A stretch of DNA of 64,000 nucleotides from Eukaryota sp. GEM-RC1 (lineage: Eukaryota). Shown here piece after piece: positions 35,121 through 40,583 of the stretch. The DNA lies in contig JAUFOQ010000013.1 of NCBI GenBank assembly GCA_040285855.1, positions 1,240,001 through 1,304,000 of the forward strand, written 5' to 3'. The notes beneath the pieces are model-generated. The model was not told the origin of the DNA and ran no database searches. It saw only the letters and a list, made by a program, of their open reading frames with translations. Numbering within the stretch: the stretch's first letter is position 1; each line of letters opens with the position of its first letter. A program made the translations under genes and the position numbers.

Positions 35121-35222
35121 CCCTTCACATTTTCATGATCTCATAGAGCAAAACCCACAGTTTGAACAAATAAATGTCCTCATTCGCAAAGTCTTTTAAA
35201 ACGAGCTAACTTCATAGATTCA
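35108..35222 (-). ncRNA. Candidate Fanzor omegaRNA scaffold / element right end
   Basis: Directly 3' of the Fanzor stop. Sense strand can form CUCGUU/AAUGAG, GGACA/UGUUC and terminal AAGGG-UUAUG-CCCUU hairpins. Assignment rests on position only. Confidence 0.4.
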
Positions 35223-38200
35223 AGATTCCTGATCTTTCTGGTTTACGTGTGAGTCCTTGGGTACATCTTTCTTAGGGTTATTTGGACAAGTTGTTTTGTT
35301 ATGTCCAGGTTGAGAACATATACGACACTTGTTAGGACCTCTGACAGTTGTTGGAGGACGTTTTGCCTTACCCTTACCCTTACTCACAGTCTTTTTCTTA
35401 GGAATCTGATCTGCATTCCCGCCATCCACGACAGGTGTTGTTTTAGATTTTGGTCTCTCGAGGATGGCAGGTCTACCTTGACCTTGAATGGTTCCATTTA
35501 CAATATTGTAAATATTGATAGCAGAGTTGAAGTCTCTATTCCAGAGGACATGACATTTAGCACATTCAACTAAGCCCCATGGTGAGACTTTGTTGTTCTT
35601 CAATCTTTCTTTCGAAAATGGCAACTGGTCTGTCCATTCTTTTCAAAGTTACGCTCCACAATATTGTCTAATTGATTGTGTTCCATAATTTCCTTTTTAA
35701 TTCTTTCTCTTCCTTCTGTAACTTCTTCTTCCAATGAGGATCTGTGACTTTTATCCTTTCAGGATTGGAACAGATACCTTCGTCGTTTCTGGAAACACAT
35801 GCAGAGCAACATTTGCTGGTCTTAAATTCATCAACTAGGAACACTTTAAATCCAAATTTTCTTAATAATATCCGAATTGAAGCACCTTTTACAGTAGATG
35901 CTTTACCTCTTCTTCGACGAAAAGCAGTGTCGTTCCAGTCTCCATACCCAACAACGACTTCATCTGGGTTTCCAAACTGGAGAGCAAATCTGTGAAGCAT
36001 GTTTTTCTCACTTCGTTCCTTTCTTGAATACTGTGTGAGACGATTCCTCCTAAACCACTTTTCTTCGTAAATTCCTTCAGTAGTTCTTTGATCAGTAGTG
36101 GGTGATCGTAATAAAGAACAGGTAATTTCTTTACCAAGAACAAAATCAGAATACTGAGTCAAATCACAAGATCTACTGCCTGGCGAGTTAGAGCCCCATT
36201 GATCTAAAATTTGTTGCCCATTTATGTCAATGCGTCTGCCATCTGGAATGTGAATAAATTGAGTAGAATACTGTTGTAACCGTTCGGATTCAGATAAACG
36301 GTGGAGATTGTATCGTCTTATTTTCTTCTCCAGCTTCCTCTTCTTTCTCTTAGCTCTTTTTCTTTCCTTCCTTGTTTTTTTCTTTTCCATGGAGACTTTT
36401 TAATATCGGCATTGCGTTCCCCAGCAGTGTATCTGAATACTTTCCAATTGTCTCGATTTTTCAACTTGACAGTTGATGGTTTGTCAATAGTAGGTGCGTC
36501 TTTCCAATCCTTCAATTCCTTTTTTAATTTTTTCAAGCTTCCTTTTTTCTTTGACGATTTTGGACAAATCTTTCTTCTTCTGAGATTGGCTGATGCATCG
36601 AAACCTTCGATTTTCTTTTCCTCCTTAGATTTTAAAGAAGCACAATACATCAAATCATGCTGATTAGGATCAATAGCAACAATTCTTTTTGATTTCAAAT
36701 TTAAGTTTTGAATTTCTGTGGAACTCAAAGAATCAATGTACCTTTCAGTAGCTGTGTAGTCAACAGCTTTCACCTTCTTATGAGGATTTCCTCTCCCATC
36801 AAGCAGATCTTTCCGCATCATCATTAAATTACAGCTAACTCCATCTGTAGAAATAGAACTGTATTTGAAGTCATGAGACAATGACTTTGGAAGACACTTT
36901 GGTTTCAAAACTGAGTGCCAAATATCTTTTCGAACGTCATCAAAGCTACCTTTAATTTCTGATGCATAAACTTTTTTAAACCATGTAGTATCCAATCTGA
37001 TATGATTAGGAATCAATGATTTTGTCAGAGGAAAAGGATTATTGGCAGTAACACCAGTACAAGAGTCTTCAACAAGACGTTTCAAATACACTGCATGACT
37101 TAAGAATTTCAAAGGATCTACTTTTTCAGCATAATAGATTGTTTTCTCCATTTTACCTTCAAAAAAAGTAAACAAATAATTAAAAAATAGTAAACTCAGT
37201 CTAGAATTGGGATCAGGAAACACTTCAACATCTTGAAAATTAATTTTTGAAATTTCCCCATTAATGATCAACTGTCTGACTTCATTAAGCTTTGTACACA
37301 ACTCTTGTCGTTGATTCTTATCAGTAAGCTTGTTAAGTCTATCTTTTTCAGGGTAACCAAATTAAATACTTGAAAAACATATTCGTGAAAGTGTTCACTC
37401 ATGTTATTCTTGTAATTTGTAATAATTTCTGTAGCCATGTAATGCAATATAGGAGATAAACGATGGCTACTGGGAAACACAATCCTATCAAGTCCAACGG
37501 AATCAGCAGCTAGTTCTAAACGAGGAATGTAATGCATCAAGAAATGTTGAGCAAACTGATTTTGAGTTGAGCCATCATTTGTGTTAGAAATTATGTTTGT
37601 TAACGATTCTTGTACAGTCCTAATATGATTCTGATTGTTTACAAGTCTTTCGTCCCTAATCGTCATCATAGACAACACTTGTTCCATTGATTTCAACGTA
37701 AAAAAATTCTTCCAGTTTGGCAATTCAATTTTGGTGGTTTGAATTCTAGTCCAAAGGTCAGGTTCAGGTTCACCACTCACATCTTCAATATTTTCTACTT
37801 TAACGGGAGGAGCAGTAGCATCGATAGACTCTGAATGTACATCTGTTTCTTCATCAGTTGACTCATCTGTATCAGAATTCATTTCTTCCTTAACAGTTAC
37901 ATTTGGAACAGTAGCAGGCAGCAACTTCTGAATGTAACCTAAAATACCAGAATGTTGAAAATTATGAACACAAAAATGTTTCAAAAAGAGAGTACTACGG
38001 ACTCTTACTTGGTGAGCTCTCTTAACACGAGATTCAATAAATTTAACCTTCGCTTTGGATACAACATTGTCCAGTCGTTTCTTAACCACTTTCATTGGTG
38101 ACTTTGAACGTAATGTTTGTTTTTTGGGATCCAATAGGTCAGCCAACAAGTACTCAATCAGAGGTAATTGTTGAATTGAGTTTATCAACAATAGCGGTCT

Positions 38201-40583
38201 TGTCGATTCCTTGGCCCAAAGTTCATTTACTTTCTCCAAATTTCTTACAAATTTCTTTTTAATCTTATCGACCTTCACTTTGGGATTGTCTGGAACTAAA
38301 ACATTAATACTGTCAATTATGCCATGCAAGTTTTGGACATTATTGACTAATTGAACTTCATCAGGATCAGAGTCATGCTTAAGTTCTTCCAAGCGTTTGA
38401 CAGTTTCATTTTTAGAAAAATTATTCATTTCAAGAAAAATTTGAACAACATTTTCCAAAAAAACGGCCACCAGTAAAGACATAAAAATTCTTCAGTACAG
38501 CATTCAAATCGAGGCTAAAAAACGGACCAAAAGTTGTTTCCTTACACCATTTGTTGAACCAAAAGGGAATGTAGGGTTTAAATTCTGGAAAAGTAAACGT
38601 TGTATTGATTTTGAGGACTTGACAACGTGATACAAGAAAGGGAAATGTATCTAAGTGAAAGTCATAACTCACAAACAATCGTGGACAATGTTGAGTAATG
38701 AAGGAAATAAAGTTTTTAAGCATACTGGATTCACTATCTGAAATATGTAAAGTACACAAATCCAAGTTTGAAGTATCAAAATTGCCATGAGAAAATAAAT
38801 GCTTTTCATTTAGCTCATTGTGATCAATGATCTGGATGGAAATTGATACAATCGGATCAACAGAAGAATCACGTTTAACTTCTAATTGATCTTCAGCTTC
38901 ACCTTCAACAGTTTCAATGTCATCATCATCTTCTTGAACAAGTTGAACATTTCTGCCATTAATTCTTTCTTTTTTGGCAAAATCACTTTGAACATGAATT
39001 AAACAAAAAGTTGGTAGATTGTTCCAAAGTAGAGGGGATTTAAGAAAGTCTTGAATTTGTATTTCTTCTTCTATAGGCTCAGTGTGTAGATTTACTTCCA
39101 TTTTATGGATTTCTTCTTGAATTGGCGATGGATACGACATAATGGAGGCCTGTGATTTTGGTGGTAGTTCAGATGGTGGTAGTTCAGTTACTGATGATAG
39201 TTCAGATGGTGATGATAGTTCAGATTGTGGTAATTCCGATGATTCCAATGTGGACATACGGCGGTGAGTCTTTCGTATTGGAGTGTCACCAGTTGAAACA
39301 AGGGAGCTGGTAGTTCTAAATTTATTTCGTTGAATTAAAGGTGAACCTCGTGGTGATGGAATATCAGAAATTTTGGGCTTACTTTTTTTAGTGCTAAAAC
39401 CAGTAGATGTTTTAGTGCTAGCAAGACGTGAACCTGTGAGAGGAATTGAAGTGGTTGGATGTTCTTTACCGGCAGGAGGTTGAATGGGTAGCGATGGTTC
39501 AATAGGAGCTACTGTGGTTTGACGTTGTTGTAGATAAAGTGTCCTTTGTTGAGACAATACATCCCGAATTTTTTCACGAAATATGTCTGCTTGAAGTTCA
39601 GTGTTCACTTGGACCAAATAAGTTTCCAAATACATCAGAGACGGAACATACGTGAGTCTTTTAAAAAGTTCAACATATTTTTGAATATACGCAATGACAT
39701 AAACTCCACAGTCGTTAGCAGACTGTGTTTTAGTCACAGGCACATAACGGAAATCATACCCCAATGGCATAAGTACTTCGGATAATATGTCTACAGCTGG
39801 TTTTACCATAGACTTACTCATATCTTCGCTAGTTAACATCGGATCAATGAAGATCCAAGAATTTTCACAACAGTCTATAATGGCTAAACCCCAATGAGAA
39901 CCAGTGACACCTTCTCTGGAATAATTAGCATTTCTAGTCATGGTATCACTAAGGGGAACAAAGAGGTATTTGGAGTTTGTGATTTGCTTTTTCTCAATTT
40001 TCGTCAACAACCATGGATCTAGCGGGGCATCTGGTGAAACAATATATTGAAGCAATGTGGTCGGATGGATAAACATTCTTTCAAAGTCTAACTCTGCTTC
40101 TTGAAATATCACTTTACAGTACTCCACTATCGCTTCGTCATCAAGCCATTGATTAGGATAAACTGAGTTTATGGCTTCTTGAGTTACGGGTCCTGGATTG
40201 GATTCAATATCACCATCAGCGGTGAGGTCTTTTGGGAACGGAGGATGGGAAGGGATAAACAGGGGAGACGAGTACTTCATGGCAACAAATGTTGATAAAA
40301 CACAGAATGAACTGTCCTTATCTAAACTCAACTGAGCCCGAAACCGTGCAATGGAGTCAGTCACAAGTTGAGTCAGATAAGGACAGAATGGCGGCATTAT
40401 CGAAGCAACGGCAGTGGGGAAAGCAACGGCAGTGGAGGGAGAAGCAACGGCAGTGGAGGGGAAAGAACTGTCCTTATCTAAACTCAACTGAGCCCGAAAC
40501 CGTGCAATGGAAACAGTCACAAGTTGAGTCAGATAAGGACAGGATGGCGGACAACATCTGTTTGGATGCAGAACAAACGACAT
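35220..40583 (-). CDS. Element C polyprotein (~1,790 codons if frameshifts are errors): leader-2A | Ulp1 protease - PolB-exonuclease-like - Fanzor1 RuvC nuclease - CCHC knuckle
   Basis: DLTADGDIESNPGP 40188-40229. Ulp1: WLDDE..GSHWGL..FIDPM..QSANDCG. Exo-like: ESSMLKNFISFI..PRLFVSYDFHLDTFPFLVSR. Fanzor1: ISTDGVS, AIDPN (D 36669-71), YGDW, VDEFKTSKCCSAC (E 35827-29), CAKC..WNRDFNSAINI (D 35532-34). Tail CRICSQPGHNKTTC. Confidence 0.85.
40309..40550 (-). repeat. 156-bp-period duplicated hairpin leader of element C with three short aagcaacggcagtgg spacers
   Basis: Hairpins 40312-40386 and 40468-40542: CTGTCCTTATCT..ACTCAACT / AGTTGAGT.AGATAAGGACAG. Confidence 0.95.

What the first reader, a model, noticed from the sequence alone, without database searches (positions are those of the whole stretch)
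35220..40583. Fanzor1 RNA-guided nuclease apparently fused behind 2A, a Ulp1 protease and an exonuclease-like domain
Seen: all three RuvC acidic residues (AIDPN, VDEFKTS, WNRDFN), both Cys pairs and the Fanzor1-type ISTDGVS and YGDW motifs are intact. Five same-strand ORFs overlap or abut, with breaks mostly in A/T runs like those in housekeeping genes here. Inference: one ~1,790-aa ORF comprising leader-2A, Ulp1, S/T/P linker, degenerate PolB-type exonuclease, Fanzor1 and a CCHC knuckle. This is much larger than typical Fanzors. The protease could process the polyprotein or remove SUMO/NEDD8 at target chromatin.
Basis: partly seen in the sequence, partly recalled or inferred. Interest (0 to 1): 0.9.

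Follow-up and report, generated by a model that had tools for sequence, protein, structure and literature searches.

The report
Fanzor fused to exonuclease and protease
A multi-copy mobile gene in a protist joins a CRISPR-like Fanzor DNA cutter to a DNA-trimming exonuclease domain, a SUMO/NEDD8-type protease and a ribosome-skipping tag, likely as one giant protein, and its unbroken relatives would be natural cut-and-trim RNA-guided enzymes.

Summary
Largely confirmed. The minus-strand pieces at 35220-40583 are six, not five, split by five frameshifts, all at A/T runs. Read through with X they give 1,788 aa with no stop: leader, 2A motif, Ulp1/SENP8-type protease (triad intact), linker, PolB-type exonuclease (catalytically dead here), Fanzor1 (RuvC triad intact), CCHC knuckle. 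The fusion is real as a family trait. 22 of 22 near-identical paralogues read through the first break. In a related skoliomonad, 9 of 22 records are single 1,215-1,494-aa proteins with all exonuclease motifs plus a full Fanzor1; 7 also carry 2A and none has Ulp1. A model of one relative matches Fanzor1 structures (Z 22-27). Host genes and a second 2A polyprotein in the window break at the same kind of run, so sequencing error is likely. No reads were available, and the later breaks recur in most paralogues. Ends, guide RNA and transposase were not found. Likely mechanism: 2A trims a swappable leader, Fanzor cuts empty sites, and the exonuclease (active in relatives) would trim 3' tails for homing. 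Protease self-processing is unlikely. Ten paper searches were not all used; none of nine showed such a fusion.

The parts
40461..40550 (-). Leader repeat copy 1: long hairpin, in frame at the start of the ORF
   Evidence: 96% to copy 2; -37 kcal/mol, z -4.45; core shared with leaders of another 2A polyprotein
40305..40394 (-). Leader repeat copy 2 (hairpin)
   Evidence: z -4.33; a third copy lies at 51318-51416
40188..40232 (-). 2A/StopGo-like motif GDIESNPG|P; predicted to release a 1,657-aa product
   Evidence: identical in most paralogues and present as DVEANPGP / DIEKNPGP in relatives; activity untested
39555..40157 (-). Ulp1/C48 cysteine protease, nearest solved relative SENP8 (deneddylase); His-Asp-Cys triad and oxyanion Gln intact
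   Evidence: Pfam PF02902 E 4e-6; SENP8 E 3.7e-4; triad intact in 17 of 18 records
39096..39530 (-). S/T/P-rich linker
   Evidence: sequence; a similar linker follows 2A directly in relatives that lack Ulp1
38120..39002 (-). PolB-type 3'-5' exonuclease domain spanning break 1; catalytic acidic residues lost in this subfamily
   Evidence: PF03104 E 9.4e-8; alignment to intact relatives; ExoI reads HxQ in 17 of 17 records
38457..38463 (-). Break 1 (T7 run)
   Evidence: 22 of 22 paralogues covering the site read through it in frame
35400..38098 (-). Fanzor1 body (WED, REC with acidic insertion 37754-37888, RuvC with insertions, TNB zinc finger); about 960 aa including the tail
   Evidence: start defined by model residue ~184 of relative P0228 aligning to SpuFz1 residue 18
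37344..37348 (-). Break 2 (A5 run)
   Evidence: read through in 1 of 5 near-identical paralogues (P0008) and in sister protein P0003; broken at the same run in 4 of 5
36663..36677 (-). RuvC-I (AIDPN)
   Evidence: aligned to SpuFz1 vidpn; D and P near-invariant in 80-sequence alignment
36397..36401 (-). Break 3 (A5 run)
   Evidence: read through in 1 of 4 paralogues reaching it (P0157, for three residues before its own end); sister proteins P0001 and P0172 are continuous here
35797..35835 (-). RuvC-II (VDEFKTS) directly followed by the first Cys pair
35640..35698 (-). Breaks 4 and 5 (A5 at 35694-35698, A4 at 35640-35643) in the zinc-finger loop
   Evidence: frames; relatives are colinear and continuous; no near-identical paralogue covers them
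35526..35564 (-). Second Cys pair and RuvC-III (WNRDFN)
35400..35549 (-). Candidate omega-RNA scaffold: stable stem overlapping the 3' coding region (a lead only)
   Evidence: z -3.49 and -3.25 against dinucleotide shuffles, picked as best of 10 windows
35220..35327 (-). CCHC zinc knuckle and stop; 100 bp from the stop of the convergent adenosine deaminase gene
   Evidence: PF13696 E 0.0086, below cut-off; also in sister protein P0007, absent from the TZLM3-RCL relatives

Best explanation
This is one copy of a multi-copy mobile gene that encodes a Fanzor1 nuclease behind a 2A motif, a Ulp1/SENP8-type protease and a PolB-type exonuclease domain, likely as one ~1,790-aa reading frame whose five breaks are likely sequencing errors, and that likely acts as an RNA-guided homing nuclease. 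Shown: domain order, intact RuvC and protease triads, a dead exonuclease in this subfamily, unbroken 2A-exonuclease-Fanzor proteins with intact exonuclease motifs in a related species, one clade for all exonuclease-bearing rows. Inferred: (1) translation starts in a swappable tandem-repeat leader and 2A skipping releases the enzyme with a fixed N-terminus; (2) an omega-RNA from the 3' end plus flank guides a cut at the element-free allele; (3) because the cut falls inside the guide-matching flank, one broken end carries a short 3' tail that must be chewed back before the element is copied in, and the fused proofreading-type exonuclease did this in the ancestor and would still do it in the relatives; here it survives as a non-catalytic DNA-end-binding or spacer domain; (4) the later-added protease would strip NEDD8 or SUMO from host repair or silencing factors near the target. 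The enzyme that moves the element to new sites was not found.
For: Fusion: 22 of 22 paralogues read through break 1; P0192 holds 2A, Ulp1, exonuclease and the Fanzor N-half in one record; P0172 is colinear over read-through residues 521-1675 at 34%; 9 of 22 TZLM3-RCL records hold ExoI-III and RuvC I-III, 7 of them also 2A. Errors: 3 of 5 host genes examined are split once each at short runs, with Pfam models continuing across the break; a second 2A polyprotein in the window breaks only at T5, T7 and A9 runs and is whole in P0235; paralogues also break at other runs where this copy is open; 0 in-frame stops in 1,788 codons. Fold: relative P0228, pLDDT 77.6, Z 22.2-26.9 to Fanzor1 chains versus 12.8 at best for others. 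Exonuclease nearest to Pol delta. Precedents read as passages: T4 gp43 3'-5' exonuclease and DexA affect intron homing (PMC2988022); Pol delta proofreading chews back invading 3' ends (PMC9477423); OMEGA nucleases as homing enzymes (PMC13565253); N-terminal 2A in non-LTR elements (PMC3894237).
Against: No record holds Ulp1 together with a complete RuvC. Break 2 recurs in 4 of 5 and break 3 in 3 of 4 near-identical paralogues, which an inherited indel would also give. The database proteins are gene predictions whose DNA I could not see; some skip stretches as predicted introns (P0177, P0189). The exonuclease is dead in the window's subfamily, so trimming cannot be its present job here. No ends, TAM, guide or transposase were identified. 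A decayed 2A-Ulp1-exonuclease element with true stops lies in the same window. The homing steps rest on analogy only.
Confidence: 0.5

Rival explanations
1. The architecture is ancestral, but this copy and most of its subfamily carry real indels: a pseudogene, or a frameshift-gated gene making mostly the Ulp1-exonuclease half.
For: Breaks 2 and 3 are shared by 4 of 5 and 3 of 4 paralogues; break density is 0.93 per kb against 0.49 in five host genes; a decayed sister element is in the window.
Against: All five breaks sit in homopolymers, there are no nonsense codons, and catalytic triads are intact; the element has more long runs (37 in 5.4 kb vs 16 in 6.1 kb); host genes show the same one-base shortfalls; P0008 and P0157 read through; none of the sites is a canonical X XXY YYZ slippery heptamer (by eye).
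Confidence: 0.22
2. The element moves through RNA: a LINE-like leader (tandem repeats, 2A, Ulp1) carries Fanzor in place of the usual reverse transcriptase-endonuclease, and is copied by a LINE reverse transcriptase in trans, possibly at Fanzor-cut sites.
For: N-terminal 2A is typical of non-LTR elements (PMC3894237; bioRxiv 2026.09.24.754024); leaders differ among copies while the 3' body is shared; LINE-like endonuclease fragments lie in the window (motif recalled, no Pfam hit); Ulp1 in NeSL-1 retrotransposons is recalled, from no call.
Against: No reverse transcriptase in the element, no poly(A) tail after the stop, no target duplication above chance, no Rfam ribozyme in the leader.
Confidence: 0.15
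3. The Ulp1 domain cuts the polyprotein into separate protease, exonuclease and Fanzor products.
For: Intact triad in 17 of 18 records; long disordered linker between domains.
Against: C48 proteases cut after Gly-Gly at the end of a folded ubiquitin-like domain (established knowledge). The read-through has two Gly-Gly sites, one inside a conserved exonuclease motif shared with Ulp1-less relatives and one in the tail. Exonuclease and Fanzor abut with no linker.
Confidence: 0.06
4. A domesticated host gene family, for example RNA-guided defence against other mobile elements.
For: A mosaic of short fragments of mobile genes, one from this Fanzor family, lies 10 kb away and could template guides.
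Against: At least 22 further copies on 9 contigs at 85-94% identity over the first ORF, with swapped leaders and protease modules, as expected of a mobile family.
Confidence: 0.07

Closest known systems
Fanzor1 nucleases SpuFz1, PpFz1, GtFz1 (PDB 8gkh, 9cf0, 9cer)
   Same: WED-REC-RuvC-TNB fold (relative P0228, Z 22-27); RuvC D/E/D with E next to the zinc finger; multi-copy with no transposase inside, as for Spu-1 (PMC10432273 passages)
   Different: Most Fanzor1 are 600-700 aa (PMC11423790; median 648 among 65 hits of 550 aa or more). Here the Fanzor part is about 960 aa and sits behind an exonuclease, a protease and 2A. No 30-nt terminal repeats were found.
MCi-2 and CRe (Helitron2) Fanzor elements of Bao and Jurka 2013 (PMC3627910)
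   Same: Variable 5' regions with a conserved Fanzor-encoding 3' part and no clear TIRs (passages)
   Different: In the passages read their extra genes are separate ORFs; the text has 0 occurrences of 'fused', 'exonuclease' or 'protease'. No Rep/HUH or Crypton domain here.
2A-bearing non-LTR retrotransposons (L1Tc, Ingi and others)
   Same: 2A in the N-terminal region of a single long ORF (PMC3894237)
   Different: No reverse transcriptase or APE/REL domain; the payload is a Fanzor
Giant transposons with accessory DEDD exonucleases (Terminons; P and piggyBac DEDDh) and Ulp1-bearing elements (NeSL-1, Zisupton, MULEs; recalled)
   Same: Mobile elements carrying 3' exonucleases (PMC6431247; PMC3627910) or C48 proteases as accessories
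   Different: Here both are fused in frame to an RNA-guided nuclease, and the exonuclease is of PolB proofreading type
T4 intron homing with gp43 exonuclease and DexA
   Same: A site-specific cut away from the insertion point plus 3'-5' trimming (PMC2988022): a works-like analogy
   Different: There the functions are separate phage genes and targeting is by protein

Membership tests
Fanzor1 | RuvC catalytic D, E, D | tested here: met
   AIDPN, VDEFKTS, WNRDFN align with SpuFz1 and with near-invariant columns
Fanzor1 | Motif D-X(125,275)-[TS][TS]-X-X-C4-X(5,50)-RD (PMC3627910) | tested here: met
   All elements present in order; first spacer is 283 residues, 8 over the published range, from RuvC insertions
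Fanzor1 | Rearranged RuvC-II: Glu a few residues before the zinc finger | tested here: met
   Glu at 1586, first Cys pair from 1593 in the read-through
Fanzor1 | Fanzor1 overall fold | tested here: met
   On relative P0228; the window's own pieces were not folded; its subfamily's P0227 match is 28% over 474-1734
Fanzor1 | Placement within the Fanzor1 clade | tested here: inconclusive
   Six exonuclease-bearing rows form one side of a branch (SH-like 100) among 63 unnamed Fanzor-like rows; FastTree, midpoint root, no named Fanzor1/2 or TnpB references
Fanzor1 | omega-RNA at the 3' end extending into the flank | tested here: inconclusive
   One stable stem at 35400-35549; no Rfam match; no second 3' end to compare
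Fanzor1 | Transposon ends (TIR/TSD) and a TAM | tested here: inconclusive
   Only 9-mer matches at chance level; genome not held
Fanzor1 | RNA-guided DNA cleavage | not testable with these tools
   needs an assay
2A/StopGo class A | (G/H)D(I/V)ExNPGP motif | tested here: met
   GDIESNPGP; motif as given in bioRxiv 2026.09.24.754024
2A/StopGo class A | Peptide-bond skipping | not testable with these tools
   needs a reporter
Ulp1/SENP (C48) | Pfam C48 above cut-off; His-Asp-Cys triad with Gln | tested here: met
Ulp1/SENP (C48) | Substrate (SUMO, NEDD8 or ubiquitin) | not testable with these tools
   SENP8 ranks above Ulp1 only weakly (E 3.7e-4 vs 0.046)
PolB 3'-5' exonuclease (DEDDy) | Domain homology | tested here: met
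   PF03104 above cut-off; Pol delta best non-Fanzor PDB hit of the family profile, E 8e-10
PolB 3'-5' exonuclease (DEDDy) | ExoI D-x-E, ExoII D, ExoIII Y-x3-D in the window's protein | tested here: not met
   HxQ at ExoI in 17 of 17 records; ExoII and ExoIII acids replaced. Met in TZLM3-RCL relatives
Non-LTR retrotransposon | Reverse transcriptase in the element | tested here: not met
   no RT family in the five main ORFs; read-through fully accounted for by other domains
Helitron | Rep/HUH-helicase and terminal hairpins | tested here: inconclusive
   No Rep hit in the element or beside the PIF1 gene at 55308; ends undefined

The most novel reading that the evidence does not exclude
Skoliomonad protists carry a transposase-free family of 2A-led mobile elements in which a Fanzor with a fused proofreading exonuclease is itself the spreading enzyme: it cuts by RNA guide, trims the break and is copied in by host repair, while an added SUMO/NEDD8 protease disarms host control. 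It would be the first natural eukaryotic cut-and-trim RNA-guided nuclease.
Probability: 0.2. Interest if true: 0.93.

Novelty: new variant of a known kind. Interest (0 to 1): 0.78.

Why it matters
Fanzors are treated as compact stand-alone nucleases whose role in eukaryotes is unsettled. A natural in-frame fusion to a proofreading exonuclease, kept with intact motifs in one species and dead in another, links Fanzor cutting to break processing. That makes the homing hypothesis testable by inactivating one domain. Unbroken 1,200-1,500-aa relatives are already in public records, and engineers fuse exonucleases to RNA-guided nucleases by design. The family also extends 2A recoding and Ulp1 capture to Fanzor elements in metamonads.

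Tried and rejected
No genome is held. No sequencing run was listed, so no read test. Single-sequence fold of P0172 failed (pLDDT 32.5) and was not used. First tree (IQ-TREE quick search) did not finish; FastTree used instead. No close relative in metagenome contigs. Of 28 viral and metagenome loci, none held both exonuclease and Fanzor; two matched the exonuclease alone. No viral relative of P0192. Of the best 150 of 182 representative hits, only P0010 carried the exonuclease. Viral fold search gave ordinary Fanzors of 876 aa or less. ESM Atlas: one weak Fanzor lead (0.75) and no usable hit for the N-terminal part. Leader hairpin: no Rfam family at gathering score or E up to 10; a sequence-only model found just the six input copies; ribozyme identity unproven. 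Terminal repeats: a 9-bp inverted match brackets the ORF (40579 and 35178) but 7 such 9-mers appeared in the scan, so it was not accepted. A first triad tally returned nothing through a faulty pattern and was redone. Four look-ups of earlier findings returned nothing. One paper recalled on tail removal was not held. No complex prediction was sent.
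Full report
Setting. The window is eukaryotic (proteasome ATPase, protein kinase, dynein assembly factor). Proteins 85-97% identical to the element's pieces are named by NCBI as Eukaryota sp. GEM-RC1, and more distant ones as TZLM3-RCL and TZLM1-RC. A passage of PMC11316075 calls GEM-RC and TZLM3-RCL skoliomonads, free-living metamonads from soda lakes. No genome and no reads were available, so evidence on other copies comes from predicted proteins.

Observation. Six minus-strand frames cover 40583 to 35220. 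The first ORF passes Pfam cut-offs for the Ulp1 protease and PolB exonuclease; the third and fourth hit SpuFz1. With X at the five breaks the frame is 1,788 aa with no stop, 1,657 aa after the 2A site, of which about 960 aa are Fanzor.

Are the breaks real? All five fall in A or T runs. I examined five host genes chosen as apparently intron-free. Three (alanine dehydrogenase, alanine racemase-like, adenosine deaminase) are split once each at a short run; for the deaminase the Pfam model runs 1-260 in one frame and 262-326 in the next. That is 3 breaks in 6,072 bp against 5 in 5,364 bp, with 16 and 37 runs of five or more. A second 2A-led polyprotein at 43805-48583 breaks at T5, T7 and A9 runs and is whole in P0235. 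Among paralogues, 22 of 22 read through break 1; 1 of 5 read through break 2 and 1 of 4 through break 3; none in hand covers breaks 4 and 5; and other runs that are open here are broken in other copies. The shared breaks 2 and 3 fit a systematic base-calling error at A-runs followed by G, but they also fit an inherited indel. I put this locus being intact at about 0.65-0.7.

Is the fusion real? As a family trait, yes. P0192 (1,040 aa) holds 2A, Ulp1, exonuclease and the Fanzor N-half. P0172 (1,182 aa, a sister subfamily) runs from the exonuclease through RuvC-II and is colinear with read-through residues 521-1675. In TZLM3-RCL, three clusters hold 22 records; 9 carry ExoI, II, III and RuvC I, II, III in one chain of 1,215-1,494 aa, 7 of these with 2A, and none has the Ulp1 motif. 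No record holds Ulp1 with a complete RuvC, so the full 1,790-aa form is inferred by tiling. These are gene predictions, and some skip stretches as introns, but the nine long ones are colinear with each other. An AlphaFold model of P0228 on an 80-row alignment (pLDDT 77.6, pTM 0.74) matches Fanzor1 chains at Z 22.2-26.9 over residues 182-980, against 12.8 at best for Cas12 or TnpB; its partial exonuclease region was low in confidence and untested by fold. The family profile's best PDB hits are three Fanzor1s, then DNA polymerase delta. In a FastTree of 69 rows the six exonuclease-bearing rows form one side of a branch with support 100; rows under 550 aa were left out and no named references were included.

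Domain state. The RuvC triad and both Cys pairs are intact. The protease triad is intact in 17 of 18 records and its nearest solved relative is SENP8. The exonuclease has lost its acidic residues in the window's subfamily (17 of 17 at ExoI) but keeps them in TZLM3-RCL. Modules are swapped: copies carry one or two different Ulp1 domains or none, and at least three different tandem-repeat leaders precede the same 2A. The window's leader repeat folds as a long hairpin (z -4.3 to -4.5) whose inner core is shared with the leader of the helicase polyprotein while the outer stems differ; it matches no Rfam family. At least 22 further copies lie on 9 contigs, so this is a mobile family.

Mechanism. 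Inferred, by analogy. 2A would free the enzyme from whatever leader is upstream, as proposed for non-LTR elements (PMC3894237 passages). Fanzor1 guides come from the 3' end and extend 14-15 nt into the flank (PMC10432273 passages), and OMEGA nucleases restore elements by gene conversion (PMC13565253 passages). A cut inside the flank leaves a 3' tail that must be removed before copying. Proofreading exonucleases do such work in T4 intron homing (PMC2988022 passages) and in yeast break repair (PMC9477423 passages). A fused PolB exonuclease would supply it in cis; in the window's subfamily it is a relic. The protease most likely acts on host NEDD8 or SUMO conjugates. Self-processing is unlikely: there is no ubiquitin-like domain and no inter-domain Gly-Gly. 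Ends, TAM, guide and mobilising enzyme were not found; a stem at 35400-35549 is only a lead.

Novelty. Nine paper searches were run. The six aimed at this fusion listed no paper on a natural Fanzor-exonuclease, Fanzor-Ulp1 or Fanzor-2A fusion, judged from titles and abstract starts. Term searches in main texts: PMC10711439 and PMC10432273 have 0 occurrences of 'exonuclease'; PMC3627910 has 0 of 'exonuclease', 'protease' or 'fused'; PMC11316075 has 0 of 'Fanzor' or 'TnpB'; two 2A surveys (PMC12338488, bioRxiv 2026.09.24.754024) have 0 of 'Fanzor' or 'Ulp1'. PMC10530073 says Fanzors often contain various extra domains; its figure S1B is in a supplement too large to read and may bear on this claim, while the readable supplements of it and of PMC10711439 had no hits. 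PMC11423790, PMC6431247 and PMC6338049 were seen as passages. Subscription literature was not searched. Ulp1 in NeSL-1, Zisupton and MULE elements and the LINE endonuclease motif are recalled.

Verdict. A Fanzor1 member by motif and fold, in an architecture I could not find described: a new variant of a known kind. Confidence: exonuclease-Fanzor fusion in the family about 0.95; Ulp1-bearing full-length form about 0.8; the whole homing-and-trimming account about 0.5 for the frame and homing role, lower for the trimming step. Interest 0.78.

Noticed in passing
window 50745-51416: Same-orientation mosaic of 40-110-bp fragments of other mobile genes (47232-47273, 44170-44251, this Fanzor family 35962-36069 at 77%, 43011-43083), followed by an inverted leader hairpin. 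Could be template-switch debris or a small-RNA source.
   Followed up: partly
window 43805-48583 (-): Second 2A-led polyprotein (153-bp leader repeats, zinc finger, DExH helicase); 14-member cluster, whole in P0235.
   Followed up: partly
window 7721-10500 (-): Decayed element: leader repeats, mutated 2A (NPDP), two Ulp1 domains, exonuclease with intact DIET, true in-frame stops; no Fanzor remnant detected downstream.
   Followed up: partly
window 4022-6590 (-): Third 2A-led frame with 100-bp leader repeats and an SF1 (AAA_11/12) helicase further down.
   Followed up: no
window 40305-40558, 48234-48551, 51318-51416, 51945-52047: Conserved hairpin core shared by leaders of different 2A polyproteins, with different outer stems; not in Rfam. 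Possible ribozyme, promoter or protein-binding site.
   Followed up: partly
window 55308-57761 (+): PIF1 helicase in a 19-member cluster, with no Rep domain seen.
   Followed up: partly
window 48734-50441 (-) and 40698-42037 (+): A USP deubiquitinase (PF00443) and a divergent frame with a Ulp1-like His/Cys pattern but no Pfam hit; the 26-kb stretch between adenosine deaminase and the proteasome ATPase is mostly mobile-type genes.
   Followed up: no
window 2070-2555, 18591-19025, 15319-15641, 60090-60355: Dispersed fragments resembling the 3' end of a restriction-like-endonuclease LINE (motif recalled; repeats).
   Followed up: no
window 442-1577 and 17091-18223: Bacterial-type alanine dehydrogenase and alanine-racemase-like genes in a eukaryote, each split by one frameshift.
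   Followed up: partly
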